This document shows, piece after piece, positions 313 through 59,638 of a stretch of DNA of 64,000 bases. How positions within the stretch are numbered: position 1 is the first letter of the stretch; every line of letters begins with the position of its first letter. The translations under genes and the position numbers were made by a program. The DNA lies in NCBI RefSeq assembly GCF_023055435.1, contig NW_025963879.1:868001-932000 (forward strand), given 5' to 3'. Source of the DNA: Haliotis rufescens. Taxonomy: Eukaryota. A model generated the notes under the pieces. The model was not told the origin of the DNA, made no database searches, and was given only the letters and a program-made list of their open reading frames with translations.

Positions 313-3300
313 CCATCCACGCATCCAGTGACTGTTAACACGGCGTGGTCAGATACCAGCACCCCGGAGCAGTAGTGCTGGCTGTATGTGGTCCTTATTG
401 ACACAACCCAGGGGAACACACATGCCCCACGTGTGCTGTTGAGAGGAAAGGAACCGATGTATCTTCGTTTGCCACAAGTTCCTGGTTGGAAATACATCAC
501 AAAAGTTAATTTAGCTGTTTATGGTAATAGTCTGTTTTGAATGGAACATGAAAATCCCATGAAATCTATGCTTTTTGGTTGCATGATAGTTTGAAAATGT
601 ACGTACTACAACCGGTAGTTTTTCATTGCACAGTGGAGCGATTTAAGCAGAGATTTCTATATATATAAACACATACTTAGGATATTGTCGGAATCGTACA
701 ATAGACTCTGCTTTCAGCAGAAATGTCTTAAGATTAAGTAAAGGGCTTTGACGATTTTTTCTGTGATGAAGGAAAGGGTTTAGTCGCTTTAATTTATGAT
801 TAAAGGAAAGGGTTTTGTGGCTTTTATTTATGAATAAAGGAAAGGGTTTAGTCGCTTTTATTTATGAATAAAGGAAAGGGTTTAGTCACTTTTATTTAAA
901 GTAAAGGGTTTTGTCACTTTTATTTATGATTAAAGGAAAGGGTTTGTCGCTTTTATTTATGATTAAAGGAAAGGGTTTGTCGCTTTTATTTATGATTAAA
1001 GGAAAGGGTTTGTTGCTTTTATTTATGATTAAGGGAAAGGGTTTGTCACTTTTATTTATGATTAAAGGATAGGGTTTGTCGCTTTTACTTATGATTAAAG
1101 GAAAGGGTTTTGTCGCTTTTATTTATGATTAAAGGAAAGGGTTTGTCGCTTTTTTTGTGATTAAAGGAAAGGGTTTGTCACTTTTATTTGTTATTAAAGG
1201 AAAGGGTTTGTCGCTTTTATTTAAAGGAAAGAGTTTGTCACTTTTATTTATGATTAAAGGATAGGGTTTGTCGCTTTAATTTATGATTAAAGGAAAGGGT
1301 TTGTCGCTTTAATTTATGATTAAAGGAAAGGGTTTGTCGCTTTTATTTACGATTAAAGGAAAGGGTTTGTCGCTTTTATTTATGATTAAAGGAAAGGGTT
1401 TGTCGCTTTTTTGTGACTAAAGGAAAGGGTTTGTCACTTTTATTTGTTATTAAAGGAAAGGGTTTGTCGCTTTTATTTAAAGGAAAGAGTTTGTCACTTT
1501 TATTTATGATTAAAGGATAGGGTTTTGTCGCTTTAATTTATGATTAAAGGAAAGGGTTTGTCGCTTTTATTTATGATTAAAGGAAAGGGTTTGTCGCTTT
1601 TATTTGTGATTAAAGGAAAGGGTTTGTCGCTTTTATTTAAAAGGAAATGGTTTTGTCGCTTTTATTTATGATTAAAGGGAAGGGTTCAGTCGATTTTATT
1701 TAAAGGAAAGAGTTTGTCACTTTTATTTATTATTAAAGGAAAGGGTTTGTCGCTTTATTCATGATTAAAGGAAAGGGTTTGTCGCTTTTTATTTATGATT
1801 AAAGAAAAGGGTTTGTCGCTTTTATTTATGATTAAAGTAAAGGGTTTAGTCGTTTTTTATTATGATTAAATGAAAGGGTTTTGTCGCTTTTAGTTATTAT
1901 TAATGGAAGGGTTTTGTCGCTTTTATTTTACCTAAGTTGTTAGGTTTACTGCCAAATTGACAAAGGTTGTTTTGAAGAGAATATAAAGATCCAATGACAT
2001 GAATTTCGTTTAATTACGATTTACAAATGCACTTAAAACTACCAATACTTCATCCTTGCTTTGACTTTAGTGTTTTTATTTCTACGACACCTTGGCATGT
2101 TAAGTTTCCCACCTGTTGAGGTAGACCCATGTAAAGTTGTTTCAAAGCTTGAAAACGTTACAGCAGATGTGTCGACTCTGGGTGTCGTCGTCCATGTTGG
2201 TAATGGTGTCGGTACTGTTGTTTCCCTTGGAAATGTATCTGTGGTAGTTGTAGAGTTGGGAGACATCCTAGTGACAGGCATGCAGCAGGTTGACCTGAAG
2301 TGTGGGCATGTTGTTGGCAAGGAATACTTCGTCTCGTAGTCTGGCATGCACCACTGTCGGCAAATACCACCAATGTACCAGCACGCTGTGAATGGACATC
2401 AACATGAGCATTTACAGAACACAGTTGCCAAAGCTTTATGTTTTATATCAATGAACATTATTTTCACATGTGTACTTGTCGTCTTGGACTTGTATGAGTT
2501 TTGAAAATTTGGAATAGCAACAGAGGCTACTATTATATTGATTGCTTTACTATAACATGACATGATTCAGCTAATACTACAAAAAACTATCAAGAACCCG
2601 ATTTCATTGAATGTAATAAAATTGGCATTAATGCAGTGTAATATGTTACGGTATACCTCACTAAGTTATGCCTTTTACCCATGAAATGTATTTATTATGC
2701 CACATGTACTTACGTAGTGCCACGCAGCAGGTGCCCTGGTACCCCATGCCGTTGTTGCAGTAGTCTAAGCCGAGGTTGACCTCCACACGGTGACACAACC
2801 CCCGACATTCCCCGCCATAACGAAGGTGGCACACTAAACATATAGAACGGTTAATTTACAGGTCAGAGCCCAGTTTATGTAGTAACTGCAAGACATGGAC
2901 ATGTGATGGCATTCCTAACATGTCTTTACAGCAAGGGAATCATTTCTTGGCATAATATGTGTTATAGATTAGCTGAAATATTAAACAAAACGAAAAGAAA
3001 TCACTGATATTCTGCTTACCTAGAGATACACGCCATTGATCTTAATTGCATTTAACTTAAACACAACATGTATGGCTGATATAAATAGTGCCTTAGTTGC
3101 ACATCAGTATCATAAATATATATACATGTAATATTATCATAATATTTTATAACTGATATAACACTGGACAAGTATTCATTTTGCATTTATATTTGTTTTG
3201 TCAGTTAGCAGAGTAAATCATGTCAGTACATCAGCCTCTTTCTTACAATACACGAAAGAATACGTACGTGACCAAAAGAAATATTGTGCGCAAACAGCTT

Positions 3301-3343
3301 GCAGATAAAACAACCAACAAACACACAGTATCCAAAATAACAT
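313..3343 (-). CDS. G1: secreted serine protease homologue with two beta-defensin-like modules (3' part beyond left edge of window)
   Basis: Exons (minus): 3343-3268 signal peptide MLFWILCVCWLFYLQAVCA-QYFFWS; probable 21-nt micro-exon 3040-3020; 2833-2714 CHLRYGGECRGLCHRVEVNLGLDYCNNGMGYQGTCC; 2385-2113 CWYIGGICRQWCMPDYETKYSLPTTCPHFRSTCC plus Thr-rich linker; 481-313 GTCGKRRYIGS...CVFPWVVSI...HYCSGVLVSDHAVLTVTGCVD. TAAHC has become TVTGC (catalytic His lost). All introns GT-AG with compatible phases. Confidence 0.85.
765..1930. repeat. ~30-bp minisatellite in a G1 intron
   Basis: Roughly 38 copies of TTTATGATTAAAGGAAAGGGTTTGTCGCTT with small indels. Confidence 0.95.
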
Positions 3344-17177: not shown

Positions 17178-20100
17178 TCAGAGGTTTGAGGTGATCCAGT
17201 CGAGGTGCCTGCTGACCTGCGTGTAGATAACAGGGATCTTTGCATTGCAGTTGCTATCACTGATGAGGCCAAATAGGCTCCACGTTCCTGTCCCATCTTC
17301 ACAAACCAGCATCCCACCGTTGTCTCTCTGAAAATCGTTAAAATCATCATCTACACGGTGTTATGTATTATCTGCACATAGCGAAACAGAAACATCCATT
17401 TTTATTAGAATCTGTAAGTGTGTAAGAATCTGTAAGTGTGTAAGTCTCCAGATTGAGCTGCGAGCTGCCTTTTTGAGATGTACTGTATACAATCCTCCTC
17501 CAGTGTTAATAGCGGATAAGTAAAAACGGATCAAATTGCTATTACTAAGATTCGTTAATATGGAAAGTCGTCAATACGGACGATTTCAGGAAGAACAATA
17601 CTGTCCGGATTAATATCGGTTTTTTTATATTCATGTAGAAAATTGATACACTTATCTAATTAGCTTAGTACTATATATCTGTACGGAACAAAAAGGTTAG
17701 CGATCATGGCTATTTCGGGGGATACTTTTGTGAAATTGTGTTCCCAGACTTTACAAATCCCCAAAAATATTCACGACACCCATCTTTTTCAGTATATATT
17801 GCATGTGAGTACGGATTGATATAGTACTTTGTATTAAGTTATTATTAATTGTGTTCAGGTACTTAAAAGAATGATTATTGCATTTAAGACTAGCAACTAT
17901 TTGTGTTTACCTGACAAGCGTTGGTCCGATCTATGACAGGGTGAGAACAGATTTTGTCCGACGGCAGGTTGGTTCTTGATCCAATTATGAATGAACATAA
18001 GGCATTTTGCATAATCCTCACATTAGCCTCGTGTAGAAGACCGTCCCCGCCTGGAAAACATTCGTTTATCAGATAGAGATGAACATAATGTGCACAAGAA
18101 CATGTATCATAATGTGCACAACAACATGCATCATAATGCGCACAACAACGTGCATCACTAACACTAGAAATGGGCATGACACATTGTACCCCCACGTTCG
18201 GAATAGAACCCGGGTCTATGGCGTGACGCTTAAACCACTTAGCTACCCCACCACCCCTCAGCAGTATATAAGCATCCACGTAGTTAGTGCATGGAGTTAA
18301 ATGGGTTCAACGCCGCTTTGACTTGCATTTCAGTCAGGTAAACGTCGGATGAAAGCCTAAAGTGATGCAGGTCAGGGCATGGTGCAGACAAACAAATAAT
18401 TATAATCAGCACGAATCTGGGATTCTAACCTACGATCATTAGATTCTGGCATGCCTAATGGTATTCCGTCATCAGTGCTGTGTGTATACTTCAACAATGA
18501 TATCTTCACTACAACTTTGCTGTTTGTATTACATCAACATTGTTGTCTGTATTACGTCAACAATGATGTCTATCTTACATCAACATTGTTGTCTGCATTA
18601 CGTCAACAACGATGTCTGTATTACGTCAACAATGATATCTGTATTTCGTCAAGAAATGATGTCTGCATTACGTCAACAATGATGTCTGTATTACGTCAAC
18701 AGTGATATCTGTATTTCGTCAACGTTGTCTGTATTTCTCAAATTTGCTGTCTGTATTACATGAACAGAGTCTGTATTACATCAACAATGATGTCTTTATT
18801 ACGTCAATACGTTTAACACCAAAAGTGATATCTGCATTACGTAAACAGTGATGTCTGTATTACGTCAACAGTGATTTCTGCATTACGTCAACAATGATGT
18901 CTGTATTACGTCAACATTGATGTATATATTACATCAACATTGTTGTCTGCATTACGTCAACAATGATGTCTGTATTACGTCAACAGTGATTTCTGTATTT
19001 CGTCAAGAAATGATGTCTATTTTACATCAACATTGTTGTCTGCATTACGTCAACATTGATGTATATATTACATCAACATTGTTGTCTGCATTACGTCAAC
19101 AATGATGTCTGTATTACGTCAACAGTGATTTCTGCATTACGTCAACAATGATGTCTATTTTACATCAATATTGTTGTCTGCATTACGTCAACATTGATGT
19201 ATATATTACATCAACATTGTTGTCTGTATTAGGTCAACAATGATGTCTATATGTCATTAACATCGTTGTCTGCATTACGTCAACAACGATGTCTGTATTA
19301 CGTCAACAGTGATATCTGTATTTCGTCAAGAAATGATGTCTATATTACATCAACATTGTTGTCTATATTACGTCAACAATGATGTCTGTATTACGTCAAC
19401 AATGATGTCTATTTTACATCAACATTGTTGTCTGCATTACGTCAACATTGATGTATATATTACATCAACATTGTTGTCTATATTACGTAAACAATGATGT
19501 CTGTATTACGTCAACAGTGGTATCTGTATTTCGTCATGAAATGATGTCTATATTACATCAACATTGTTGTCTATATTACGTCAACAATGATGTCTGTATT
19601 ACGTCAACAATGATGTCTATTTTACATCAACATTGTTGTCTGCATTACGTCAACATTGATGTATATATTACATCAACATTGTTGTCTGCATTACGTCAAC
19701 AACGATGTCTGTATTACGTCAACAGTGATTTCTGCATTACGTCAACAATGATGTCTGTATTACGTCAACATTGATGTATATATTACATCAACATTGTTGT
19801 CTGCATTACGTCAACAATGATGTCTGTATTACGTCAACAGTGATTTCTGTATTTCGTCATGAAATGATGTCTATATTACATCAACATTGTTGTCTATATT
19901 ACGTCAACAATGATGTCTGTATTACGTCAACAATGATGTCTATTTTACATCAACATTGTTGTCTGCATTACGTCAACATTGATGTATATATTACATCAAC
20001 ATTGTTGTCTGCATTACGTCAACAACGATGTCTGTATTACGTCAACAGTGATTTCTGCATTACGTCAACAATGATGTCTGTATTACGTCAACATTGATGT

Positions 20101-23100
20101 ATATATTACATCAACATTGTTGTCTGCATTACGTCAACAATGATGTCTGTATTACGTCAACAGTGATTTCTGTATTTCGTCAAGAAATGATGTCTATTTT
20201 ACATCAACATTGTTGTCTGCATTACGTCAACATTGATGTATATATTACATCAACATTGTTGTCTGCATTACGTCAACAATGATGTCTGTATTACGTCAAC
20301 AGTGATTTCTGCATTACGTCAACAATGATGTCTATTTTACATCAATATTGTTGTCTGCATTACGTCAACATTGATGTATATATTACATCAACATTGTTGT
20401 CTGTATTAGGTCAACAATGATGTCTATATTACATCAACATTGTTGTCTGCATTACGTCAACAATGATGTCTGTATTACGTCAACAGTGATATCTGTATTT
20501 CGTCAAGAAATGATGTCTGCATTACGTCAACAATGATGTCTGTATTACGTCAACAGTGATATCTGTATTTCGTCAACGTTGTCTGTATTTCTCAAATTTG
20601 CTGTCTGTATTACATGAACAGAGTCTGTATTACATCAACAATGATGTCTTTATTACGTCAATACGTTTAACACCAAAAGTGATATCTGCATTACGTAAAC
20701 AGTGATGTCTGTATTGCGTCAACAATGATATCTGTGTTACAAATAAATGCTATAAGGCCCGTGTAATCATATGGCTTCCCGTGTTTGTTTATTTTGATCT
20801 CTTATCTCTAACCCTATGGATCATAAATATATTGGGCGCACGGGCGGCCCAGTCTTCTTAGGCGCCGTGATTCGCTGTATAAAATTGTGTCCCTTCGGCA
20901 CGCCAGAAACCTATGATTGTAGGTTCGATTATGTTTCTAGGTTTGTCAGCACCATATCCGTGCTCGTGGGTTTCACCGAAGTGGTAAACGTCTGAGACCT
21001 GCATCACTTCGGGCTTTCCTCCCTCGTTAAGCTGACACTCCGTGATATAACTGGAATACTGTTAAAAGCGGCGTTAAACCCAACTCACTCACTCATAAAT
21101 CTATTGATGTACTCACGTGCATTTGGCCCCCAGCCTGCTATGTAACATCTGCTGTTTGAGTCGACGGTCTCCCCATTCCGAGGAAGACAGACAGGTTGTG
21201 CACATGAAGTTCCATCAGACGGAATGGATGATTCCAGTGTCAGAATGGCTATGTCGTCAGCTGTTAATTGTTGATGACATCTTAAATAATGGACATCACT
21301 TGACTACATTCCATGCACATTTATGAATACTTTAACTTCACGATACGCTCATTTGATTACAATCTTACGCCATTAAACCAGTATGGATGTCGTAGAATGC
21401 AGTTTACCATGATATATTTTTGACGTACAATTATAATCCAGCTATTTTATGAACGGCCTGTAAATAGTCGAATCAGAAAAAGAAAACCAGTGGTTGACAT
21501 TATGAACAGCGTCAGGTCGTAAGATGACCCGCAATCAACAGAGTCAGCTTGCCTGACAACCCAGCCGATCTTAGACGCCTCTTACCACGAGGTTACATGG
21601 AACCAATTCTCCCTTCACGGAAATCGGACGGGGTTGGTACATAAACGAATGGTGTCAGTTTGACAATAACGTGTAACTGTATTGGATATCGGGTAAAGTA
21701 CCTACCCCTCAATGGCTCTCCAAGGTCGGTGGGGCTTGGATTTGGTGTGGCTACACCAGTAACAGCCACGGTCTGCTCGCCATTTTCCCAAAGGTTGTTG
21801 ATGTTATTCTCGCCAACAGTTACAACCACCTGGCGGCTGGAACAGAAGCAGACATCTCAATCGACATCGTGATGTCAAAGTTGAATTACGAATAACGAAT
21901 CACATCTGCTTTAAGTTCAACAACGTGATCGTAGAGCTATGACTACCGTAATAACATATATGTGTCTTACGTCGTTTACGTGGTCGAACTCCATCTGTCA
22001 GTAATATTCTCCCATATAAAGAAACATAAACGTGTTTGAGAAGTTTTCTTTTATAATACAATGAACTTAAAACGTAAATGAAAATGTTTGTTTGTCTTCA
22101 GTTCGTGTTAATTTTGTTGACACAACCAGTGTTATACAGAAGACACTGTCAGTGACGACGGGAAGGTAATCGTCTTCATGGTTGATGGAAAGGAAAACCA
22201 GAGTGGGTAATGCAGTCGAAAAATGCAACAACTAACTGACTCTTTTGATGATATGTTGTTACCCTCAATATTGCAAAACACAAACTGATTTGTGAATTAT
22301 TGGTATTCATCAAGTAAAACTGTTTAAAACTGTCAACTGTTTCATTCAAACTACACTTTAAACCCAATCTCATTAAAATCAGATCTTAGTTCTCGCTACC
22401 GCTAAACAGAGATCTGAGGACATCCCATTATGGGTAACGTCATAACGACCTTTCTTTCGACGAATCAGAACGTCGCTTACCAGATCATGAAAGTGACAGT
22501 CGGAATGTAAATTCTAATCATACAACCTCGAAAACTTTAACACGGGGTATTAAGAACGATAGTTACGGGCTTAACGACTGAATCCATACAATCTAGACCA
22601 TCTATTAGCCATTTCAAAATGTTATTTTGTTCAGGTTTCAAATATTTTATCGAAAATTTGTCAAAATATGCTTCGAAGCGTTGTCGCCAATTTGAAATTA
22701 GTGCCGTAAAGCACAAGAAAGCTGCCTTCTGATTGGCTAATGTCGACTTCCTGTCAGCCATTTCATTGGTCGGTCAAAGTAAGCGCAAGGTCGGTCTGAC
22801 GTGACCCGGAATGGGATGTCCTCAGATCTTTGTTCAGCGGTAGCGAGAACTAAGATCTGATTATAATGAGATTGACTTTCAACCCTGCATAGAGTCTACA
22901 GTCACAACTTACCCGAGCACACAGCTTGATGTGGTGAGAACCTTGTTGCGGTTGACAAGCACTCCGGCACAGATGTGAGGGCCAATGTTGCTGGTTGTTC
23001 CAACCTTAATGGAGACCATCCACGGCCACTGGCACTGGGAGCTGACAGGAACACCACCCACGATACGACCAGCTACAGGATGAAATCGAGGTCGTGAAGC

Positions 23101-26100
23101 ACACACTGAAAAGACATCTACATATATAAGTCACAGTAACGAAACACAGTATGAAATAAAATGAAAATAAATATTAATGAATCTATCAAATATTTACGTT
23201 AAAAACATTTCGAATACAGTTTCACAGTTGAAGAATCAAGAGCTTTATCTGGGACCAGCGTTTTACAATTATTGTTGTTAGCGTTGTTAAGCATAAGTAA
23301 GGATAAGATATATATCTTTATTAAAATCAGGATCACCTTTTCGGTGTATGTTCTAGCACCGTTATCAAACAAGTGAACCTACGTACACCGAAGCGTCTCC
23401 CCAAGTTGTAATAAAGAATGTGTTCATCCTAATACCTTATCCTTACTTAGTACTCCAACTCATCTGAAGACGTTGCTGAGCATATCTGAAATAATTACTG
23501 TAACTTGAAAATTATTAGAATATACACAGGAATGTGAAGTTTCGATAATAACAATAAATATATATATACGAATATCGCGGCACAACATAAATGCTGCTGA
23601 TAGCAAAGTCAAATTCACATTGACACCATACGACGGTATAATTGTTTATTGCATTAATTTCTTCACTGAAATACGACACGATAGATAGGAGTTAGATGGG
23701 AAATTATGATAACTTTTTTTACTTTTAGTACCCGTGAAGATCCTGGTTAGAATAGGTCTTCAGCAACCCATGCTTGCCGTAAAAGGTGACTATACTTGTC
23801 GCAAGAGCGGACTAACGGGATCGGGTGGTCAGGTTCACTGACTTGGTTGATGTATGTCATCGTAAACAACAAACAACATCACCTCATCCTTCTTAGGTTT
23901 AAGGAAATTTGATAATTATTAAAAATGACATACGATTTCTTTCTTTTACTCAGTGCTTCATGTTTCGATGAATTGATTATGTTGATATTGTTGACATCTT
24001 GTAAATATGAACAAGGAGAACGAGGGCTTGTCAAAACGTTCTAAGCCTGGCTAACTTTCAACTATGGGCCATACCAAAGCCCACAATTATGGGCGAATAG
24101 TCAATGTAGTACATTGTTTGAGTAGTTCATTGCAAGAGTATTTGGTCTGCTGAGGCCGTTTGTATATTAGTGACAGACAGTTGAACGTGATAGGGGTCCA
24201 AATGGACACAGAAATGGAAACGAACTAGTACCAAGTTTATTTACTTTGGAGAAAAGTATTCCTAAGAAATTCATGACCGCATGTCACAAGTGTATGGGGA
24301 TAAGTGACCTAGCTATTCCAATGTTCCCTCAACTTCCATTAATGAAGATTCAATCAAGGAGATAGAAAAACTTATACTGTCAGATTCACGTATTGCTATT
24401 GCTGAACTTGAGGAAGACACAGGTCTCAGCCATGGATCCATTGAAACTATTATATCATGAACATTTACAGATGAAGATATCTGCTCGTTGGGTGCCAAAT
24501 GTTCTTAATTTGATCTTCAAGAAAAAGGAACTGTCAACAACTGACATTGCCACAGAAAATGTAGAGATAATTGAAGAGGATTTTATCAAATTCAAAAAGA
24601 GATTAGTAGCGGGTGATGAACATGGGGTCTACCACTATGATCCCGAGTCAAAACATCAATCCACGGAACGGCACCATTCCACTTCTCCGGCATCAAAGAC
24701 ATCCAAGTCTTCAAGATCAGTGAAGTAAGTTATCCTTGTTGATTACTTAGAAAGTCAAAAGACAGTTATCGGTGCCTACTATGCTGATTTGCTTCATCGC
24801 CTGAGAGATTCTATCAAAGAAAAACGACAAGGAATGCTGAGTGCTGGAGTTCTACCCCTTCATGACAATGCCTCTTCTCACACCTATCGACTTGCATAGG
24901 CTGCTGTGCGACATTGTTAGTTAGAAGAGCTTCCTCACCCTCCATACTCGCCAGACCTGGCTCCACCTGTTTCCTAAACTGAAAGAACATCTTCGTGGAA
25001 AGCGCTATGACGACAACGATGACCGCTAAACTGCCGTGAATGGGTATTTCAGGGTGGCTTCAGAAAACTTCTGACTGGAATTTAAAAGCTTCACTATCGA
25101 TATGAGAAGTGAATTGAAAAGCAGGGAGATTATGTTGACTTTCACAATTTTTGGTGTTATTTGTTAGGCTCAGAACCTTTTGACTAGCCCTCGTAGAGGA
25201 CGTGTTGTGGATTATTAGTAACTAACAACGTACCCCGTGGCACGAGTGTCGTCGTAGTTGTCATCGTTGTTGTCTGCGTTACGGGTCTGTTCGACCGTCT
25301 CACACAACATGTTCCTCTTTCTCCGAATGGGCATCTAACGTTGAACTGAAGTGGCACCTCAAAGGTGCTGAAACACCCGCGTTGGCGACACACTCCGCCA
25401 TATGATAAGCACGCTACAAGAAGAAACATCTTTGTCATGTTTTTGTAAACCACATACATATACTATAACATACAAAAACGACACTTCACAAAGTTGTTTC
25501 CTGGGGGTTGGATTCGATTTCTACGTGAGTACAGTGTTTTAAGCTCATTCCTGCTTTCCACCGTATTGGTAGTATTGAGTGAGTGTTAAAATCTAACGTC
25601 ACATCGGCAATATTTCAGCCATATTGTGACGTGGTAGTATTAGATTAACGAAACCGTATATATTCCCTCACATGTAGTTAGAGTGAAAAGTTTGGTGGTA
25701 TAAAATGTTGAGACGACTCTGGTCAGAGAAGGCAACAAAAGAAACTATACCTCTCATTTGTTTTTATCATATGTGTGAGTGTCTATTGAAAATATCTGAT
25801 TAAAAGTAAGCGATATTGTATCATAAAAATACACAAGTTTTGATGGGTATCTTAGACATCTTTTGGAAAATCAATAAAGAGGTCTTTTGGTTGCAACCCA
25901 GTCTTCAATGAAATAATTCATTTTTGCACAAACTTACCCAGCCACAGATAACGTTAAACAAACTGTTGCAGTTATGAGTGATGATTAAATAGACATAATC
26001 AAATTTAACAACCGGTCTTTCTATTTTCAATTACATAAATGACTATACTTTCTTTCGGTATACATTCTTTTGTGAGTCTCATTTACCAGAATCACCTAAT

Positions 26101-27035: not shown

Positions 27036-27074
27036 GCTGATCTTGAGCATAGGTTAATTGTGTACCTAACCTCC

Positions 27075-30685: not shown

Positions 30686-30742
<57 letters not shown>

Positions 30743-33700: not shown

Positions 33701-34752
33701 ATTTGAACGAGCAGATCATTGCAGTGTTGTTAAAGGAAAAATTGATGGGATTGCAAATTTATCGAGCCTAAACCCCCTTTAAACAAAATTTTTATATTTT
33801 TTATGAAAATGTTTAGTATAGCGTGAATTAAGAACACTGACATCTAGAATATTGGGCGCAAAAGGAATTTTTTTTATTATGACATTTTATTATAGTGAAT
33901 CACAATGATGACACCAGGTGTTAGCGAAGAGGGTATGCATGTTCTGCTCTAGCCGAAACACCCGCCACTCACATAATCAAAAAGTTCCAGCAAATAAAGA
34001 GATGTGAAAACTCCATTACAGGTCACAAAATATGAGAAATCATTGCCCATCATGTTGACAAGCGGTGTGACCTTTCTAGTAAATTCCTCTGAATGTCCAC
34101 TATAAGATATCTGGAATGACCTAACCAGGCTAAACACTGTCATATTCAGTTCCAAAGAAGAAATGTTTTGAGCTCTATGTATAATTACTTGAGCCGTTTT
34201 AAGACTAAGCCAAAAATACTATATTTTTCTTATGTGAAGTGAGATTGCTGACACCTGTTTCTTCGGTATTCACCATCCGTATTATTATCAACTGAGTCAC
34301 ACTTTTGATTCATTGTCATATGTTTACCAGTACTTAACCATACGAATAAGTAATACGATTATACTTCTCAAAGAAGTTAAGGACCACCCGATATTTCAAC
34401 ATAACTACATGTACAGTTAATCTATTATACCATGTATACATGTATAGTATTATGAAATAATCGGATGATCCTTTCTTTTGAATAGCATACAATTACTGTG
34501 TCTTCATATTAATTCAAACATCAGTAACATGCATGTCACAAGGTAGTGTGTTACTATTCAAAGGTAAATAATTGTATAAATTTATCTGACACAATTAATC
34601 TTAAGTAAAATAGTCAATCCTGCCTGCACAACATTCGTCAACAACTTACGTGTTTGACCGTGGCTCCTACACACAAATGTCAACAAGCAGAGAGTAAACA
34701 CAAAAACTCGCCACCAGAGACTCCAGACGCGAATTCCCTCACACCAACCCAT
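29191..34752 (-). CDS. G4: secreted trypsin-type serine protease zymogen (~338 aa) with an N-terminal 6-Cys module
   Basis: 8 exons: 34752-34650 (signal peptide), 33524-33423 (CGEHCPYFRQCYPTSQVCQLLYRYCQC), 33137-33084 (RPPPRTTTT linker), 32503-32320 (SR|IVGG, TAAHC), 31371-31244, 30481-30344 (NDLAV), 30009-29858 (GIDSCR, Asp189), 29346-29191 (GDSGGP, SFGRGC, PGVY, stop). Triad and trypsin S1 pocket intact; 1017 nt, open frame. Confidence 0.93.
29560..29780 (+). mobile_element. SINE family B copy in the last intron of G4
   Basis: GGTTCGAATCCC B-box; GCATCACTTCGGGC...GTTAAACCAAACTCACTCACT. Confidence 0.75.
30688..30738. repeat. (TA)n microsatellite
   Basis: Direct reading. Confidence 0.95.
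31640..31980 (-). mobile_element. tRNA-derived SINE family C copy
   Basis: A-box TGGTCTAGTGG and B-box GGATTCGAACACC, then CCTGGCGCTCGGCATTAAGGG...ACTGGTCGGCTCGG. Shared with the 15268 and 6095 copies. Confidence 0.85.
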
Positions 34753-36210: not shown

Positions 36211-36261
36211 GATTACAGGTGTTTGTGAAAAGGTGAGTCTATCCTGCCCCACCTGGGAAAC

Positions 36262-38297: not shown

Positions 38298-38391
38298 CTT
38301 CTCCTCCTACTTATACAAAAACTACATGGAAGAAAAGCATTCCAAGAAGACGGTATTGCAAGTGTTTATTCTGTTGCTCATCTCGTGTCCG

Positions 38392-47342: not shown

Positions 47343-50300
47343 TCAAGAGAGCTGTTCATGTTCTTTAACACTGTTGATCCAGGTGGCATAGTGAGGAATG
47401 TCTATGTACACAGAAACAGCTTCTTCGCAACTCCTGTGTGATGTGCTGACAGCGTACAGAAACCACTTATATTCTCGTTGAAGCATCATTGGGGCTCCTG
47501 AATTTCCCTGAAAATTGTGAGATCATTTATAGTGCAAGTTGTAAGTTGTATTTTAAATTTAAGGATGTCTATCAACTGAATATTCAATTCAATTCAATTC
47601 CGCATTGTAAAGTAAATTAATAGTGTAAGTTGTAAGTTCTGTTTTATAGATAATGATATTATTAAGTAAACTGATAATTTATTCAATAAGTATTACCCAA
47701 ATTATAAATTTAGTACATGTGAACATGACATTTATGAATGAGTAAGATGGGTTTAACGCCGCTCAGAACAGTATTCCAGTTATATCACAGATTAATGTGG
47801 GAAGAAAGTCCGAAGTGATGCAGGTTTCAGACATTTACCAGTTAGGCGAAACCAACAAACTCGGATATATATTGTGCTGACAAAACAAAAAACATAATCA
47901 AGGCGAACCGGGATTCGAATCTACAATTATAAGTTTCCGGCGTACCGAAGGGATTCAACTCTGCACAGCGAATTGCAGCGCCTAAGACTGTGCCTCACGA
48001 TTAATCATGGAATATAATTATATTCCTTACATGACAAACTGACGAAGAAGATATGCTAGACCACAATCCAGCGCAGATCGAATGCTGTAGTGCCGAAACT
48101 TCCGGGTAGATGTTCACACACTCCTCACGGCTTATTACTGGTAGCACAGTTGCCTGCAATCTTGCCCTTTGTTTGTTCCAGAAACCTTAAAACATCAAAG
48201 GAAACTGGCATATTAAAAGTTGTAAGACAACACAAAAGGACATCACATTGACATCTACATTATACCTTTTTTTGTCACCAATGAAACTATATGACAAGTC
48301 ACACTACATACAAATAGTACACAAATTGCCGGGCAAAAGAAGGTAAACACTTGAAAATTGAACTCGACCCAAAACTGAGAAATGCTATGAAAATGTTAAT
48401 AGGCTAGAAAACAGAAACCGAGACACTGTAAACTTCAGGTGCAAAACTCAAACGTGATGCCCGTATCAAATACATCCCAATCGCATAACCATTTGTTGTT
48501 TGTCTCATTTCTAGCCCCCATCAAACATCGGTGTGTGTGCTTTCTTTTGCCCGACAGTTTAGAATTGAAAAATAGACAAAATGGTTTGATATAGGGAAGA
48601 AATAAAACGCCCTTACGCCCAAATCCTACGATTGTGACCAGTTCTCCCTTTTCAGGATTGGTTGCTGTTCCGGGTATACATATTGGCTGAATACAGGGCG
48701 TAAACCAAACCTTCTTCTTCAAGGTGAGAACTGCGACATCGTGTCCTGAAAATAATACAGGCACAACATCAACCCTTTTAGTAATGAGAATTGAATTGAT
48801 TTTCTTTATATCCCATATGTTTTCAGCAGAGATTTGATTGATTATGGAAATGGTTTTGTAAGAACTTACTTGCCAAACCAGTGTTTCTGTATTTAGGATG
48901 AAGCGTAAAGGACTCCAAGTCTATGTAGGTGAGCTGTCCAGCCTTTTGTGAACCCATACCCACATGCACATCGTCAGCGAGAAAATACCTTGTAAAGATA
49001 ATATGGAATGTAGTGTATGTCGTTGTTATTTCTTTGACGTAAATTGGCTGTTGGGTTTCCCATGATGTTTAATTTGTTTATTGTATTAGAACTCTTGAGA
49101 ACTCTTCACGAGTTTAGAAATTGCAAGTACATGTTCCTATATTCGATGAAATATGTCTGTCTCACAATATTAGGACCATCTTGTGAACAGCGTCATTCAA
49201 TCGTGAAGCGTCAAGCAAATGCTACAAAAACAAATGGCGTCATGATGTTAACTTCAGAGGGGTTAAACAGGTGTCTTTCAACCATTAGAGGGGGGGCTTG
49301 TTGAAAACATTTATGCAGCTCAGCAGTCAACATGTATTGGTTATAACACGAAGGTTACTTGACAATCAGATTTTTCGCTTTTTTCTGTTTTCATATGCAG
49401 GCAACTCGATCTGTCCATTCTGACTTTTGTCAGATTTAGTGAATTTGTTAGAGATAGTGATGTGTGTGATAACTTGTTATTTTCGAGTAAGAACATTTTC
49501 CTTATATGAATACAATGCATAAACATGTGGATGAGCCATGTGGTTCGTAAAACTCATCTGCCTTCACCATAACAAATGACCAAATATTAGTATACCATCA
49601 GCCAGCGTGGAACATGTAATGATCTCACCCCGCCAACATTATTGTTCTAAATCATTTTGACAACAAGACAAACGTAGTATCCTTTAAGAAGGTTCATCAT
49701 ATATAAATTCATGAATCGGACAACTTTATTTACAAATCTAGATATGCTTGTGCATGATAATAGACATATGTCTGGGTATTGGGACACAACCAACTCGTAT
49801 CCTAAACATAGCTTAAACAAATGTTAAATGGCGACTATGCTCTAAAGTAAGTGCACATGTTCTGCCCAGAAACTATTATCTGAAGGACGAGAATCAAATT
49901 TGCTAGGACTGCCAATTAACCAACCCCCGTCCACCTTTAAGAATATTATTTCATTTTCTTACCTTTGACTGAAGCAATGGGCAGCAGTGATGATATGCCT
50001 CTCGTCTATTAAGGTTCCAACACACATTTCAGCCTTCCTTTTCTTATCACGAACAATAACTACCCATGGGTGTGGGCACTTTCTGTTCAGCACTGTACCG
50101 CATGAAGATACTGGAATAAATGTATGCTTTAATATATTATGTGATCCAATGCAATGCATGATGTAAATGAAATGGACAAGGACGTACCTATTCTGTTGTT
50201 GTTACATGTGGTCTAAGAAATGCTAAAACAAACAAAAGTATTTTTCATACAAACCAAATACGTGTTCATTCAAAAGCATTTATAAAAAAAGTATAATATT

Positions 50301-51202
50301 TTTTTTTTATAATACATGTTTTGCACTGTTAAATAACAACATGACCTGAAAATCAGATATAAACTAATCGCCTTTATTTTTTTGCAAATATGGATATTAT
50401 CTGTCATATGTAGGGCTGATATGCATGAACTTACGCATCTTATCACAGTTTTTTGCAAATATGGATATTATCTTTCATATGTTGGGCTGATATGCATGAA
50501 CTTACGCATCTTATCACAGTCAAGTAGGTCATAGAGTTGCTGGGAATCCGCATCATGAAGGAGATTGGTCAGAATCTTGCATAACTCTTCACGAAATAAA
50601 AACTAAATAAACAGATCGTTCATTGTTGAGGTAAACATGATTTCTTTAGCAAATTAGCAAATACTTATTTCCTTACAAATCTTTATATATTCATAAATAG
50701 CATTACGTCCATTACTGCTAGTGTCGTTAATTGGTTAAGATTGATAATTCCACTAAACAGTACAGCCAAAGAAAGAAGCAGATGAGTTGTTCAAGCCTTA
50801 CTTAATTAGCAATTCTATAGGACCGACGCAACGTTTTGATTAAAGATCGATAAAAGTACTAGTTTTTAAAGACGATCACATGAACATGAAATGAAACACA
50901 TTTGAAAATGCTTTGCTATCTAGCAAGTAGAACTTATACATTGTTCAACGTACAGCACAAAAATCATATCATTTGAAAGCAGAAAAAATATACTTATGTT
51001 GATTTTGAACAACAAAAGGCAAACGATTTCACGGTGAAAATTATATAAACCTGAGAGCATATTTTATACTGTAGCTCTATTACATGCCATTACATATCAA
51101 AAGAAAATTAATGCATTATAACATCCACCTACCTCCAACTCCTTGTGCAAGAAAACAATGGCATATGCAGAACAATAGGCTGATGACAAGAAGGATACGC
51201 AT
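47343..51202 (-). CDS. G6: atypical secreted trypsin-fold protein (~288 aa); triad retained, IVGG and Asp194 lost
   Basis: Exons: 51202-51133 (MRILLVISLLFCICHCFLAQGVG), probable 50586-50506 (ELCKILTNLLHDADSQQLYDLLDCDKM), 50110-49963 (CGTVLNRKCPHPW...TAAHC), 48988-48870, 48745-48617 (HDVAV), 48185-48031 (SSSVCH), 47507-47343 (GNSGAP, stop). 867 nt, open frame. Confidence 0.88.
47735..47995 (-). mobile_element. SINE family B copy in the last intron of G6
   Basis: GGGTTTAACGCCGC...CCGAAGTGATGCAGG...GGCGAACCGGGATTCGAA...GCGCCTAAGAC. Confidence 0.8.
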
Positions 51203-52199: not shown

Positions 52200-53120
52200 G
52201 TAAAAGCGTTATAAAATATCGGTGTGAAAGTTTACATATGCCTGACTAAAGGTTTGTTAGAAAATCATATATTTCGTTACTTAATGCTGCGCACAATGGT
52301 AAAACAAACTGGGCCTCTAAAGTTAGACAGCTTTTATTATGTTCAGGTTTGGGCTATCTGTGGAAATAACAGTCTGTTCCAAACGTACCAAATGTTTTGT
52401 CAGAATTAACTGATAGCACAAAATCATATGATTACTCATTGTATAAAGTTAACTTCAATACCGAATACTATATCTTAGTCCTAACATGTTATAAATTAAG
52501 AACCACAATGGCACGGTAAAGATGCAGTTCCCATCGCCTAAGAATTGAATCAGGAAGATTAACTTCAGAAAAGAGAGAGAATAGAATTTGTGTTATTTGT
52601 AAAGAGAACTGTATAGAAGACGAAAATCATTTTATTTTGATGTATGAAACATATTATACCTATCCTACTAGACACAAGTTTCATGTATTTATGTCGTCTA
52701 AGGCGCCGCGATTCGCTATGCAGAGTTGCGTCCCGTGGACACGCCAGAAACCTATAATTGTGGGTTCGAATCCCGGTTCGCCCCGATTATGTTTCTAGGT
52801 TTGTCAGCACCATACCCGTGCTCGTGGGTTTCACTGAAGTGATTTAAGCCTGAGACCTGCATCACCTCGGGCTTTCCTCCCACATTAAGCTGACACGCCG
52901 CGATATAACTGGAATACTGTTAAAAGCGGTGTTAAACACAACTCACTCACTCACTCACTCACTCACTAATTACGGATACACATTCAAAAAGCTATCGATG
53001 TACATATATATATCAATGTGTATCAGAAACAAACTGGCACACTGAGTCTTCGACTACCTATATTACCATTGTATCATGGGCCTATGGCCTACAATACTGA
53101 ATAGATAAAGTTCATTGATT
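52200..53120 (+). mobile_element. Decayed LINE 3' fragment interrupted by a SINE
   Basis: RCSSHRLRIESGR...RENRICVICKENCIEDENHFIL at ~52520-52640, a typical non-LTR C-terminal zinc finger. SINE inserted at 52693-52968. Boundaries approximate. Confidence 0.75.
52693..52968 (+). mobile_element. SINE family B copy
   Basis: GTCGTCTAAGGCGCCGCG...GGTTCGAATCCCGG B-box...(CACT)n tail. Confidence 0.88.
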
Positions 53121-54445: not shown

Positions 54446-57400
54446 ATGATTTGTTGGAAGGTATTTTCAAGGCTTGTGTTGTCTCTCGTAAGTCCTACCT
54501 AAACATGGCTTATGCAAAACTGCATATGTGCATGGGTTTATTGCTATGGAATTTGCCGTCGTTACCCAACGATTGAATAAAGCTTATAAATTACTAAAAA
54601 TCTGTATACACACTACTGTCATATCATTATTCTTTGTAGTTTGCTTCAAACATTCATTAGTTTCAAGATTTAATTGCCTACTTGTTACTTGAGTACATTC
54701 TTCAAAGCTTTCAGCTTGACAGATCTCTGCTGACGCTCTCCTGTTAATTGCTTTAGGTAAGAACCCGGATTTGAGTGGGTATCAATGAGTCAGTAAACAT
54801 GCGATAGTTTTAGTTTGAGGGTTAGTTTCCTGTGGTGAGATTTTAAGCAGGAAAGGACCTTTGTTCTGTGGTTTGAGTCAGATTTTCTAGCAGGAAAAAG
54901 CCTTTGTTATGAAGGTTCTGTCATATACAATTCAGAAGAGATAAATATGATCTGATAGTGTAAACTACGGGAACAAAATGACAATGATTTGGAATATAAG
55001 AAGAGGTCTGATTTTCCGTGTAACTGTTTTTAGCTTCTTGTGCTGGTGTGGAGGTAAGCCTAAATGTGTTTTGTATTTATAATGAACACAACATGCTTTC
55101 ATTTTGAGAGAAAAAATCTTTATGTTGAGAATGTTGTAAACATGTTGCTGGGTAGAAATATTTAACCAACATGATGTCATTATGTTCTCCCGACAATTGA
55201 GTCTCATTGTTCACTTTTAATTTGACGTTCAAGTAGCCAACATGTACATGCAGATGTCAATGCATTATTTCGTCCTGTCGAGCCCCACGTTAGATCGTGT
55301 GAAGCATAGACCTGAGGACACCAGCAGTAATATTGCCGTGTTATAGCGGGTTTAAACATTATTAATTATTATTTCATCATATGATATTTAATCATTTATA
55401 TTTCAGCTGCGCAAAGAAGAGCACGTTTCTGTGAGTCTTTATTGAATTGTTTCGACTCTTCTCTTCTCTGCCCGGTGCTGTTTGGATACTACAACTGTAC
55501 TGATTTTAACATTGCGCGAAATACAGGTAACGTATTTATGCATTGAAGCTACACTATTGACATCCGTTAGTTTCCCTTAGTATATGGTGGCTGACGAATT
55601 ATAAGAGAGTGTTTTTAAATTGTCAATAGTAAGGATACCCGCATTAATTCCATGGCCCATTTGAGGCTAGGGGTCAGAATTTCCATTCATTTAGTGACTT
55701 ATTTATATCATGATTTACCCCCCAAAAGCATTTTCTTGTATTAATATCTTAATTCCAAACACGATATCATGTCACACATCTAATGTGCTTACGTTTATTA
55801 AATAGTTGACATGAAATTATGTTTTGCAAATTCAGTTCATATAATTATCATTAAACGGTTTACTCAAACCTGTGTTCTCAGTTTGATAATATGTCTAGGA
55901 AATTAAATTTAATCGTATTCACATTTACCTTACTGAAGTTTTACAGTATGCTATTTTTTTATAAATACTTATTATTATGATTACCTTTAACAAAGGTATA
56001 ACTTTACATACATATCTGTTAAAAAAGTATAAGTTGGACATGTAAAATGGGAACTTCACTTTAAAATAGTAGCATTGTACTGAAACAATATATCAGTTTT
56101 GAATTATTGTAGTATTCGTCAGCAAATATATTTAAATTGTTTTAAGTCATTTGACTGGTTTTACTTAGAGCCGGCGTGTGGGGAGAGCCGCGTGACGGGA
56201 AGGGCGTCTCTGTACGCTATGCCGCGCGTCGTCAACGGTGTAGACGCGGAGGAGAGAGAGTTCCCATGGACTGTTAACGTGGAAGATGAGGAATCTTTGA
56301 TCGGCATGTGTGGTGGCTCCATCATCAGAAAAGATGTCATCCTCACGGCTGCCCATTGTGTCAGGTATCTGACACTTGTATTTCTGACCAGTGCACATAT
56401 ATATATGTTCTTTTATTAGTTATTAAACTTGAAAGTATTGACTGTAGTGAGTGAGGTTGATTTAAGTAAATTAAAAGTGTATATTTTATTTTAAAGATAA
56501 TGATATCATTAAGTCAACAGAAAACATGCTTTATAAATATTATCCAAATAATGAATCAAGTACATGTGAACATGACATTTATGAATGAGTGAGTTGGGTT
56601 TAACGTCGCTTTGAACAGTATTCCAGTTATCACGGCGGGTCAGCTTAATGTGGAAAGACAGTCCGAAGTGATGCAGGTCTTTGACGTTAACCATTTTGGT
56701 GAAAACTACCACCATGGGTATCGTGCTGACAGACCTAGAAACATAATCGGGGCGAACCGGGATTCAATCGTAGGTTTCTGTTGTGTCCAAGGGACGTAAC
56801 TCTGAACAGCGAATTGCGGCGCCTTAGACGACTGTGCTACCAGTGTCCCGCATTAACTGCAAGATATGTGTTATCAATATATGACAACTAGTTGACATTT
56901 AGCGTTAGATCCACATGTAGTTTCCATAAATATATATGCAATTAAATGGGTTTGAAAAAGTATATACGCTACTGCTCACCTCTGGATTTCCTACATAACT
57001 GAGGGTGAGAAACACAATTCAGAATACTGGTATAAATGATATTCGTGGGCTCGAATTCCAGATCCATGATTGGCTACTCCATGGTCATGGCGGACTTCTG
57101 TCCTGGTTATAATTCATTGATACGTGTCCCATGTATCATGCCTCTGGCACACCATTTATCTTCGAACTTCTGTGAACATTGAGGCCCATACGGCATGTTA
57201 TCACTAATTGATTGTGATTTACGTAAGTTCATAATATTGTCGGAATTGTACATGCTTTTTGCAGAGATGGCTTATGATTATCCAAAGGGTTTTGTCGCTT
57301 TTATCCATGTAAGTGACTGCAACATGCATAATATCGATACCATACATATTAATTCGTATATATTAGTTCATTTGTATAGTGTACATGTAATGTTAATATA

Positions 57401-59638
57401 TATAACCAAAGCTTATACAAAGGTATCTATTATTAGTATAAAGATAACTTTCTGCCACCACAGATCCCTTGTGAGACGCCCCAAATCCTTGAGAATTGGA
57501 TATGGATCTACAAGACTATCCCGACTCGTCTATGTTCGTGCGAGTCGGATCAGCGTCCATCCTGATTATAATCAGACAAACGGTATGCTATATCATAATG
57601 ATAACTTCTTGAATCCTTAAAAAATAATGCATTGGTTACATTTGTATATTTCTTCTGAAAATTAGCTTAGGGCCAAACAACACACATCTGAGTGTGAATC
57701 TTGAAAATAAACAGCTATATCAAGTAGATATTCCAGTTTTTGTCAATAAAGTCTTTGACAATATGAGCAACGATCCATATCTCGGCGACGATGACACACA
57801 ATCAGATGTAACAGATTAGTCAACTCTACTAACATTAACAAGTATGGGGCACTGTCTTTATGTGTATGTTCACGTGACAGTTAGCAGGATGCCAGCTTCA
57901 TCACGGTCCGGACATGTGGTTCACAACAAGAGCAAAGTTGACACGTGGTTCTGAGTACAGCTCACAGTTTACAAATCAGGTGAAGTTTAGCGATGTTTGT
58001 CGCCGAGGGTAGTTGGATGGGAGCTTGAGTTTTTGAGTTCTTGGGCTTCGGTCCTGCCCAACACTGAAACACATGTAGCGCATGTGGTGGCGACTCAGTG
58101 ACTTTGTTCGAAATATGCCTCTGTTCACCCAGCCGTGAATGGGTACCCGATAGGATGAGAAGGTAACGTGACTGTTAATATTCTAGCACCTCACGGGGAT
58201 TGCAACTCCCCAGGGAGCTGGACCATTGACGATTTCATTTGAGCATGCTTTAGGGTGTGAATTTGACGCATTATGAATATGCACATTATTGTTAAAGGTC
58301 CACACTTCGGGGGATGATAACACACCATCAACCTGATCACATATTGTAATTATCCGACTATCATTAATCGACTCTTCCGACAAGCGCGGGAACCTATTCT
58401 GCCCTTGAAGCTCAGCTTGGTCGTACAGGTAAATACAAAGTAGAGTGGTCATGAAAATGATATAATTTGTTTCTGTTCGTGAAGCGAATTGCTTGGTCCC
58501 ATTATCTTAACCTAGATGATTGGGTCTTTTTCTGCTCCTACTCCGTGGATTGCTGCTAATCTTGTCTACGACTGCTTATATTAGCCCGGTAAGATTACAT
58601 ACCCAGCACTCTATTATTTAACGTAATTGGATCAGGTGGTCAGACCCGGTGACTTGGATGCTGTAGTGTCATCCCACCGAAGGCGTTGGTGGTTGCTCAT
58701 AACATGAATAACCAGTTTGTCCTTCACCAGACTGGATCATGTGCAGGCCGCCGTGTGATATCTCGATTACTGCTGACTGCGTAAAATAACATTCACTCAT
58801 GTCATTGCTGTTCCTTCGATTCTCCAGGTGACAATGACATTGCTGTTGTGGTTCTTAATGAAGCCCTGCCGCTGAATACCAATCTCAGAAGTATATGTCT
58901 ACCTGAAGCCGGCGCATCCTATGATAGCAACAGCAGATGTATTATCGCTGGATGGGGAATTCTAAATGGTAAACATTTCGTCAAAAGAACATGGTAAACG
59001 CTAAGCCTATTAAGAGTGTCAGCGGTGGGAATCATGTCATAACCAGTATTGTTTTAATATTTAGTTTTGTAGCTGCTGTTGTTCCTTTAAATTCGCATTT
59101 CAGTGATAATTGTATTCTCTTCCACTGAAACAGTCAATATTTCACTAACTGCTGTTATATCGCAATATGTTGTATGCGCTGAACTTGGTCCGCTGGTCTA
59201 CATTCCTACGAAATAAACAACATTATAACATTTTATTGCAATAAATAACACTCAGCGTTTGATATGGATGCTGATATACTCCAAAGGATAACTTATTATG
59301 GAATGTGTATGTTTATTTTTTGTTATTAAGCTGAAACTGATCCACTGCAACTGAACACTACGACATATGCAATTAACCACTTGGACATTCGTATGTTCAT
59401 GTCAAATGTTGACCAGTCTACAACATATTTGCAATCCTGTGTCATCAAATGAGTCATCTCTTCCTCATTCTTTAAAGAAAACGGTAATAGGTTCCCGGGT
59501 AGTCTTCAAAAGGCAGCTGTACCCTTGGTGCCCCGCAACTCATGTCAACGAGCCTACTCCAACAACCCCTACATCCTTGTCTCGGAGAGACAGGTGTGTG
59601 CCGGATATTATGGCACTGGGGGAGTTGATGCCTGCACG
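54446..59638 (+). CDS. G7: secreted trypsin-type serine protease, divergent from G6; final GDSGG exon not found in window
   Basis: Exons: 54446-54487 and 54723-54756 (probable split signal peptide, less certain), 55407-55526 (FCESLLNCFDSSLLCPVLFGYYNC), 56169-56364 (PR|VVNG, TAAHC), 57464-57582, 58828-58968 (NDIAV, CIIAGWG), 59478-59638 (GVDACT then GT donor, Asp189). Phases match the paralogues. Confidence 0.85.
56583..56850 (-). mobile_element. SINE family B copy in a G7 intron
   Basis: Reverse-complement copy, similar to 47735-47995. Confidence 0.8.
57985..58290 (+). mobile_element. SINE-like family D; related copy at ~9270-9520
   Basis: Shared ATGCCTC..TT.AC..AGC.GTGAATGGGTACCCG core in both copies. 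Boundaries approximate. Confidence 0.6.

What the first reader, a model, noticed from the sequence alone, without database searches (positions are those of the whole stretch)
313..59638. Cluster resembles a self-contained zymogen cascade: module type tracks catalytic status
Seen: all genes with defensin-like modules (G1-G3) have lost catalytic His, and all genes with the second module (G4-G7) keep it. G4 and G7 have Asp189 and Arg activation sites. The dead G2 and G3 still keep R|ILGG or R|IVGG, Asp194 and the linker Cys (Cys1-Cys122 tether). Known: arthropod prophenoloxidase and Toll cascades use active CLIP proteases plus cleavage-activated non-catalytic SPH cofactors. Inference: an analogous protease-plus-cofactor system (immunity, wound sealing, mucus or shell matrix) in which G4/G7 could cut G2/G3 after Arg.
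Basis: inference. Interest (0 to 1): 0.7.

Follow-up and report, generated by a model that had tools for sequence, protein, structure and literature searches.

The report
Abalone protease and pseudoprotease gene array
This window is the middle of an abalone array of about 30 secreted trypsin-type genes, most of them catalytically dead, whose dead members keep the cut-to-activate switch and so likely serve as switchable helpers of trypsins; the small front-end domain follows gene ancestry rather than dictating activity.

Summary
Seven spliced, secreted S1A genes lie in the window. G1-G3 carry two six-cysteine modules (predicted beta-defensin fold) and lack His57. G4-G7 carry a different module (predicted helical hairpin) and keep it.

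The headline fails in two ways. The set is not self-contained: it is 7 of at least 30 genes over 464 kb, and G7's catalytic Ser lies outside the window. Module does not dictate status: the next gene, G0, joins a defensin-type module to an intact trypsin, and His loss is one event on the tree, leaving one independent contrast.

The cofactor idea gains support. Of 21 His-less genes, 18 keep the activation Arg. Across 29 genes the activation site and Asp194 are kept together (24) or lost together (5), never singly. Spliced G3, G4, G6 and G7 occur in one RNA-type run. Cleavage, pairing and function are untested.

Abalone clip-type proteases are in print (citation seen only), and this scan noted the same cap in another abalone genome. 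Verdict: new variant of the clip-protease/homolog design, moderate interest.

The parts
313..3343 (-). G1, 5' part: signal exon 3343-3268, two defensin-type module exons 2833-2714 and 2385-2113 (second with Thr-rich linker), activation/His exon 481-313; His57Gly, non-canonical Tyr at position 16; four more exons lie left of the window
   Evidence: H. asinina ortholog P0007, 75% identical over 210 aa
5729..12403 (-). G2: signal, two defensin-type modules (11749-11627, 10309-10118), dead S1A domain (His57Ser, Ser195Asn, Asp189, Asp194 kept, Arg15-Ile16 kept); 8 exons
   Evidence: ortholog P0008, 80% identical, keeps the same sites
17178..27050 (-). G3: signal, two defensin-type modules (26432-26310, 25413-25234), dead S1A domain (His57Ser, Ser195Asn, Gly193Arg, Asp194 kept, Arg15-Ile16 kept); 8 exons
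   Evidence: contains P0004 exactly; spliced contig in run X3; first module predicted beta-defensin fold
29191..34752 (-). G4: signal, second-type module (33524-33423, 6 Cys), intact trypsin-type zymogen (Arg15-Ile16, His57/Asp102/Ser195, Asp189, Gly216, Gly226); 7 exons
   Evidence: spliced contigs in X1, X3, X8; module predicted as two short helices
38392..43572 (-). G5: signal, second-type module (41865-41782, 6 Cys), intact triad and Asp189, but Tyr at P1 and Gly193Thr; 7 exons
   Evidence: H. rubra ortholog P0043 (87% identical) keeps both oddities
47343..51202 (-). G6: signal, degenerate second-type module (50586-50506, 2 Cys), triad present but activation segment deleted, Asp194Asn, Ser189; 7 exons
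   Evidence: equals P0088; 6 of 6 introns bridged in X3 and X4
54978..59638 (+). G7, first six exons: signal, second-type module (55407-55526, 4 Cys), trypsin-type zymogen (Arg15-Val16, His57, Asp102, Asp189); the Ser195 exon is at window-equivalent 68266-68421, beyond the right edge
   Evidence: full model contains P0030 exactly; 5 of 5 in-window introns bridged in X3 and X4

Best explanation
The window is a slice of a tandem array of at least 30 secreted S1A protease genes in an abalone, in which one catalytically dead lineage keeps the zymogen switch and so is likely turned on by trypsin-type cleavage to act as protease cofactors or scaffolds, as arthropod clip-domain homologs do. Shown: gene structures, residue states, the array's extent, G0 as an intact protease with a defensin-type cap, and co-presence of spliced G3, G4, G6 and G7 in one run. 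Predicted: a beta-defensin fold for the first cap and a helical hairpin for the second. Inferred: an ancestor like G0 (defensin-type cap, active) gave rise to one His-less lineage that mostly kept the cap, and to one active lineage that swapped its phase 1-1 cap exon for the second module, which explains the module/status trend without a causal link. Inferred: cleavage after Arg15 lets residue 16 pair with Asp194 and reshape the dead domain while Cys1-Cys122 holds the caps on. Inferred, weaker: the cutting enzymes include the array's own Asp189 proteases (G0, G4, G7-G10), and the output is extracellular defence.
For: 30 genes in 464 kb, 9 with His57. 19 of 19 His-less genes in the tree form one side of a branch against 17 outgroup proteases from the same genome, 89/84, unstarred. 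P1 Arg in 18 of 21 His-less genes, 15 of 17 after collapsing near-copies; sixth most conserved column of an exon with 31% mean identity. Activation site and Asp194 both kept in 24 and both lost in 5 of 29 genes, 4 separate changes, 3 of 3 independent pairs concordant. G2 and G3 orthologs at 80% and 77% identity keep Arg15, Ile16 and Asp194. All 7 members with intact switch and triad have Asp189. G0 = P0006 with a second-species ortholog P0012. Insect homologs need cleavage between clip and protease-like domains (PMC6901238 passages; PMC10540698 passages). An abalone clip-domain protease is reported up-regulated by Vibrio (PMC7151749 passage citing Hu 2018); its relation to this array is unknown.
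Against: No cleavage, binding or tissue data. The switch covariation rests on 4 events (sign test p=0.25); one of the five losers has a frameshift (g-69336) and one (G10p) may be decaying. G1 and g-203049 keep Asp194 with a non-canonical residue 16, and the Arg column depends on the alignment. The tree uses 169 columns from three exons and has long branches; shared catalytic residues may pull active genes together. The genome holds many other trypsin genes (147 matching exons among 150 candidates scored), any of which could be the activator. The runs were chosen for holding G4, their tissue is unknown and their RNA label is a guess.
Confidence: 0.6

Rival explanations
1. The dead proteins are cleavage-switched but are not cofactors of their neighbours. 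They would act as binders, opsonins, antimicrobial-cap carriers or matrix proteins, cut by microbial or unlinked host trypsins, while the active genes work separately.
For: The caps are predicted beta-defensin/big-defensin folds. One dead member adds four TSP1 repeats (P0010). Many other trypsin genes exist in the genome. G5 needs a non-trypsin activator.
Against: The array keeps only trypsin-type intact enzymes beside Arg-site pseudoenzymes. G3 occurs with G4 and G7 in one run. The Cys1-Cys122 pair would keep the caps tethered after cleavage.
Confidence: 0.25
2. The retained Arg15/Ile16/Asp194 are ancestral leftovers or folding constraints. The dead proteins act uncleaved, or the array is plain birth-and-death duplication with little regulation.
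For: Recent near-identical duplicates and at least one frameshifted copy exist. Only 4 independent joint losses.
Against: The P1 Arg is conserved across paralogs at 31% mean identity while neighbouring linker residues are not. There is no discordant case among 29 genes.
Confidence: 0.1
3. One reading: a closed seven-gene cascade in which the defensin-type module marks cofactors and the second module marks enzymes.
For: Trend over the array: 12 of 13 defensin-capped genes lack His57, 8 of 8 second-module genes keep it.
Against: G0 is defensin-capped and intact. The array has at least 30 genes. There is one independent contrast. G6 and G10p carry the second module but lack the switch. 9 of 21 dead genes show no module.
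Confidence: 0.05

Closest known systems
Arthropod clip-domain serine proteases and homologs (cSP/cSPH: Anopheles CLIPA/CLIPB, Manduca SPH1/SPH2, Holotrichia PPAF-II, Drosophila cSPH35/cSPH242)
   Same: Signal peptide, one or two small six-Cys caps ending in a Cys-Cys pair, low-complexity linker, S1A domain, a mix of active and dead paralogs, Arg sites in the dead ones. NCBI's automatic names include 'stubble-like' (G0) and 'CLIP domain-containing serine protease B9-like' (G6). Atlas feature search puts CLIP clusters at ranks 2 and 3 for the G0 cap, scores 0.81 and 0.78, leads only.
   Different: No Pfam CLIP match. The cap model is all-beta with defensins as top matches. Insect PPO-cofactor homologs have Gly for the catalytic Ser (PMC10540698 abstract), whereas G2/G3 lose His57 and have Asn195. 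Most active members here carry a different, helical cap. No downstream target is identified.
Beta-defensins and the C-terminal domain of molluscan big defensins
   Same: Six-Cys framework; predicted fold closest to human beta-defensin 4 (Z 5.5, rmsd 1.4, 36 aligned) and to oyster big defensin 1 C-terminal part (Z 3.8); a phase-1 intron just before the Cys-rich region, as described for big defensins (PMC7203481 passages).
   Different: Fused to protease domains, flanked by phase-1 introns on both sides, sometimes doubled; Pfam defensin hits are weak (best E 0.011 in 1 of 8); antimicrobial activity unknown.
Hdh-cSP, clip-domain serine protease of Haliotis discus hannai (Hu et al. 2018, PMID 29108972)
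   Same: Same genus, described as a clip-domain serine protease and as Vibrio-induced (seen only as a citation and one sentence in PMC7151749).
   Different: Paper not held, sequence not seen; whether it belongs to this array is untested.
Peptidase family S1A (trypsin/chymotrypsin; Pfam PF00089)
   Same: All 10 full-length proteins scanned are S1A or a truncated array model: 9 of 10 match PF00089 above cut-off; canonical zymogen motifs.
   Different: 21 of 30 array members lack His57.

Membership tests
Peptidase S1A | Trypsin domain above Pfam cut-off | tested here: met
   P0004 (G3), P0006 (G0), P0030 (G7), P0088 (G6) and orthologs of G1, G2, G5, E from 2e-28 to 2e-58
Active trypsin-type S1A zymogen | His57/Asp102/Ser195, Asp189, Asp194 and a hydrophobic residue 16 after the cleavage site | tested here: met
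   Met for G4, G5, G7, G0, G9 and by exon motifs for G8, G10; not met for G1-G3 and G6
Clip-domain SP/SPH | N-terminal domain matching Pfam CLIP (PF12032) or CLIP_1 (PF18322) | tested here: not met
   0 of 8 defensin-type modules at E<=1, 0 of 7 second modules at E<=5, 0 of 10 full proteins at E<=0.1
Clip-domain SP/SPH | Six-Cys cap ending in Cys-Cys, linker, then S1A domain (framework recalled) | tested here: met
   Six invariant Cys plus one Gly in 8 of 8 modules; architecture of P0004 and P0006. Not met by the second module
Clip-domain SP/SPH | Clip three-dimensional fold | tested here: inconclusive
   The model's matches are defensins; Atlas features give CLIP as a sub-0.9 lead
Clip-domain SP/SPH | Cys pair tethering the cap to the protease domain after cleavage | tested here: met
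   Cys1 and Cys122 present in 13 of 13 full-length proteins; sequence level only
Clip-domain SPH cofactors | Non-catalytic by loss of triad residues | tested here: met
   G1-G3 and 18 further genes lack His57; G2/G3 have Asn195
Clip-domain SPH cofactors | Activated by proteolytic cleavage | not testable with these tools
   Site conservation is consistent; no cleavage data
Clip-domain SPH cofactors | Forms high-mass complexes that assist prophenoloxidase or Toll-ligand activation | not testable with these tools
   Defined in PMC10540698 and PMC6901238; needs biochemistry
Beta-defensin / big defensin domain | Three-stranded beta fold with six Cys | tested here: met
   Predicted model pLDDT 86 from 8 sequences; top match HBD4, Foldseek prob 1.00 but E 0.068, Z 5.5; only the first G3 module was folded
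Beta-defensin / big defensin domain | Released antimicrobial peptide | not testable with these tools
   Here the domain is fused to a protease domain; no activity data

The most novel reading that the evidence does not exclude
Abalones run a clip-type extracellular protease network built from their own parts: about 20 pseudoproteases, most capped by beta-defensin-fold domains, switched on by Arg cleavage by a handful of trypsins from the same array that carry an unclassified helical disulfide cap. The Arg15/Asp194 covariation would mark which pseudoenzymes are switchable and which (G6, g-88306, g-173367) are fixed in one state.
Probability: 0.3. Interest if true: 0.7.

Novelty: new variant of a known kind. 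Interest (0 to 1): 0.42.

Why it matters
From my own knowledge, how molluscs trigger humoral defences upstream of phenoloxidase or Toll-type signalling is poorly defined. If the best explanation holds, this array supplies named enzymes, named pseudoenzymes and exact cleavage sites to test in a farmed animal. It would also link the defensin fold to the clip-type cap role. The pseudoenzymes offer a natural series with and without the Ile16-Asp194 switch.

Tried and rejected
Strict module/status rule: rejected (G0).

Second module: no Pfam family (1 of 7 members hit Carb_bind at E 0.012), no PDB sequence match of note, no Foldseek match, best VIA Z 3.2 to generic helical hairpins. This does not show a new fold. 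Its profile matched 7 of 132 stored proteins, all Haliotis, and not the Cys-rich N-termini of limpet P0113 or argonaut P0116.

Defensin-type module: no clip-domain structure was listed among the fold matches, which does not exclude the clip fold. Its profile against 1.84 billion representatives gave 7 hits, 5 Haliotis and 2 judged spurious (a fish protocadherin-like protein and a repeat protein). The profile is weak, so this is no proof of restriction to the genus. No PDB sequence match. Single-module searches of the own genome found only copies in this array.

Loose six-Cys scan: 25 rows; I kept 16 modules on 13 genes and dropped 9 rows as repeats or lacking an acceptor, including one with an acceptor at 155265 that reads like a dispersed repeat. 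Two kept caps lie 10-14 kb from their gene and are assigned by position only.

RNA: no listed holder is on record as RNA. G3 cover was not seen in X1, X8 or X18, nor G4 in X18 (noisy at 90% likeness), and G6 joints were not seen in X1. These are no evidence of absence.

A collapsed Fisher test of switch covariation (p=2e-4) used a hand-set count and assumes independence; not relied on.

No complex prediction was run (enzyme-substrate pair, partner unknown).

Literature searches found no description of this array in the held library. Two papers asked for by id were not held. No supplements were read.
Full report
What is in the window. Six-frame motif scans and exon-by-exon reading gave seven intron-containing genes with GT-AG boundaries and open frames. 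G1-G6 are on the minus strand, G7 on the plus. Each begins with a signal-peptide exon, then one or two phase 1-1 exons with a small Cys module, then five exons of an S1A domain. The nearest database proteins are from Haliotis. My models of G3, G6 and G7 contain P0004, P0088 and P0030 exactly. Contigs of RNA-type runs bridge 6 of 6 G6 introns and 5 of 5 in-window G7 introns in X3 and X4, and 4 of 5 G7 introns in X1 and X8. Single contigs carry G3 exons and G4 exons in X3, and G4 exons in X1 and X8. The N stretches fall outside all modelled exons.

The residue claims. In chymotrypsin numbering (G1), G1-G3 have Gly, Ser and Ser at 57; G2 and G3 have Asn at 195 and keep Arg15, Ile16, Asp194, Cys1 and Cys122. 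G4 and G7 have the full triad, Asp189, Gly216, Gly226 and Arg15. It missed three things. G5 also has the triad and Asp189 but Tyr at P1 and Thr193, both kept in its H. rubra ortholog. G6 has His57 yet lacks about 19 residues of the activation segment and has Asn194. G7's Ser195 exon lies 8.6 kb downstream, outside the window.

Not self-contained. The window is G000:C101:868001-932000. With 220 kb to the left and 180 kb to the right, exon profiles built from my models found 30 genes with an activation/His exon in 464 kb, with genes near both ends, so 30 is a lower bound. Nine have His57 and 21 do not. Seven have both triad and switch (G0, G4, G5, G7, G8, G9, G10), and all seven have Asp189. None is an intact chymotrypsin-type enzyme, so G5's Tyr site likely needs an outside activator.

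Module and status. The first module has six invariant Cys. An AlphaFold model of one copy (pLDDT 86, three strands) matched human beta-defensin 4 best, then other defensins and oyster big defensin (Foldseek E 0.068; Z 5.5, rmsd 1.4). Pfam gave no CLIP match. Atlas features gave CLIP clusters at 0.81 and 0.78, leads only. The second module keeps two invariant Cys, six in G4, G5 and G10. Its model is two short helices (pLDDT 85) with no informative match. That gave 16 defensin-type modules on 13 genes, 12 His-less and 1 intact, and the second module on 8 genes, all His-bearing; 9 of 21 His-less genes showed neither. Only G0-G3 and g-141583 are tied to their caps by database models or RNA; the rest are assigned by position. 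The exception is G0, the next gene left of G1 (C101:854010-843991). P0006 maps to it in seven exons at 95-100% identity and reads signal, one defensin-type module, Thr-rich linker and intact trypsin-type domain. A second species has the same protein (P0012).

Ancestry explains the trend. A tree of 28 array genes from three exons (g-141583 and g198171 left out for missing exons) put the 9 His-bearing genes on one side of a branch, 91/87. With 17 outgroup proteases from the same genome (19 recovered of 20 loci, 2 dropped as near-copy or truncated), the 19 His-less genes formed one side of a branch, 89/84, unstarred. His state needs 1 change and module type 2. Among the 18 genes given both traits there is 1 independent pair on starred branches, p=1. 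The in-window Fisher p of 0.029 therefore counts one event seven times. Caveats: 169 columns, four long branches, and catalytic columns included. The simplest history, inferred, is a G0-like ancestor, one loss of catalysis, and one exon swap of the cap in the active line.

The switch is kept in dead genes. In an alignment of all 30 activation exons, 18 of 21 His-less genes have Arg in the P1 column, 15 of 17 after collapsing near-copies. That is the sixth most conserved column where mean identity is 31%. Asp194 is present in 17 of the 20 His-less genes whose last exon was found. The three without it are the three without the Arg. Among His-bearing genes, G6 and G10p lack both a usable site and Asp194. 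Over 29 genes, 24 keep both, 5 lose both and none is discordant; this takes 4 changes on the tree, and 3 of 3 independent pairs agree, p=0.25. Against this: few events, a frameshift in g-69336, possible decay of G10p, and non-canonical residue 16 in G1 and g-203049. G2 and G3 orthologs in H. asinina, 80% and 77% identical, keep Arg15, Ile16 and Asp194. From established S1A biochemistry (recalled), cleavage before residue 16 lets the new N-terminus pair with Asp194. Joint retention in proteins that cannot catalyse suggests the conformational switch is still used.

Mechanism and odds. Best reading (0.6): cleavage-switched pseudoproteases acting as cofactors or scaffolds for trypsin-type enzymes, likely including their neighbours, in extracellular defence. 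The specific pairing G4/G7 on G2/G3 is chemically allowed, and G3, G4 and G7 occur in run X3, but tissue is unknown and runs were chosen for G4. I put that pairing near 0.25.

Comparison with what is known. Insect clip-domain homologs are non-catalytic, need cleavage between clip and protease-like domains, and assist prophenoloxidase activation (PMC6901238, passages; PMC10540698, abstract and passages). This array resembles them in architecture but fails the Pfam CLIP test, so I do not file it as a member. Big defensins occur in abalones and have a conserved phase-1 intron before the Cys-rich region (PMC7203481, passages); the word 'clip' does not occur in that paper. An abalone clip-domain protease induced by Vibrio is cited in PMC7151749 (passages) and PMC9854804 (reference only); the paper itself was not held. 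Searches (listings only) showed no account of this array; subscription journals are largely outside the library and no supplements were read.

Verdict. Observation partly confirmed; interpretation partly supported; new variant of a known kind; interest 0.42.

Noticed in passing
L005:4200-6010 and L004 (G000:C101:854010-843991, minus): G0: intact trypsin-type protease with one defensin-type cap, equal to P0006; the counterexample to the module rule and a candidate counterpart of Hdh-cSP.
   Followed up: yes
window 38392-43572: G5 combines Asp189 with a Tyr activation site and Thr at the oxyanion-hole position 193; both are kept in the H. rubra ortholog.
   Followed up: partly
window 47343-51202: G6 is spliced and has a full triad but no activation segment and Asn194; the H. 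rubra ortholog P0108 has the same deletion. It may be a zymogen-locked or cofactor-activated enzyme.
   Followed up: partly
window 33423-33524, 41782-41865, 50506-50586, 55407-55526; L007:6830-6925, L008:6132-6251, L011:7268-7378: Second cap: about 30 residues, predicted helical hairpin, 6, 4 or 2 Cys, no family or fold match found.
   Followed up: partly
L011 (C101:~974500-979400, minus) and L027/L028 (C101:~714900-719600, plus): G10 and G10p are near-identical copies 260 kb apart on opposite strands. G10p has His at P1 and Tyr194 and seems to sit inside an intron of dead gene g-141583.
   Followed up: partly
C101:~764000-812000 (L019-L015, L001): A block of about 19 kb with two dead genes is repeated two and a half times. 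One copy has a one-base frameshift in its activation exon; recent duplication or assembly artefact.
   Followed up: partly
L029/L028 (C101:~726400-731500): Dead member g-141583 has a defensin-type cap followed by four TSP1 repeats (P0010); the database model stops after the activation exon.
   Followed up: partly
L012:6000-7679, minus: An open frame of at least 560 codons with a hydrophobic start and Gln/Gly/Pro/Tyr/Asn-rich sequence lies inside the array; a possible secreted low-complexity protein.
   Followed up: no
window 728-1928, 18521-20741, 28722-29018, 37986-38298, 60075-61386: Tandem repeats: 33-bp, 23/46/323-bp, 39-bp, short CA-rich, and 146-375-bp units.
   Followed up: no
window ~20900-21095, 23730-23900, 31630-31860, 36200-36445, 52570-52990, 56590-56800: Dispersed high-copy repeats in introns and spacers draw very deep contig cover; SINE-like by impression, not classified.
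   Followed up: no
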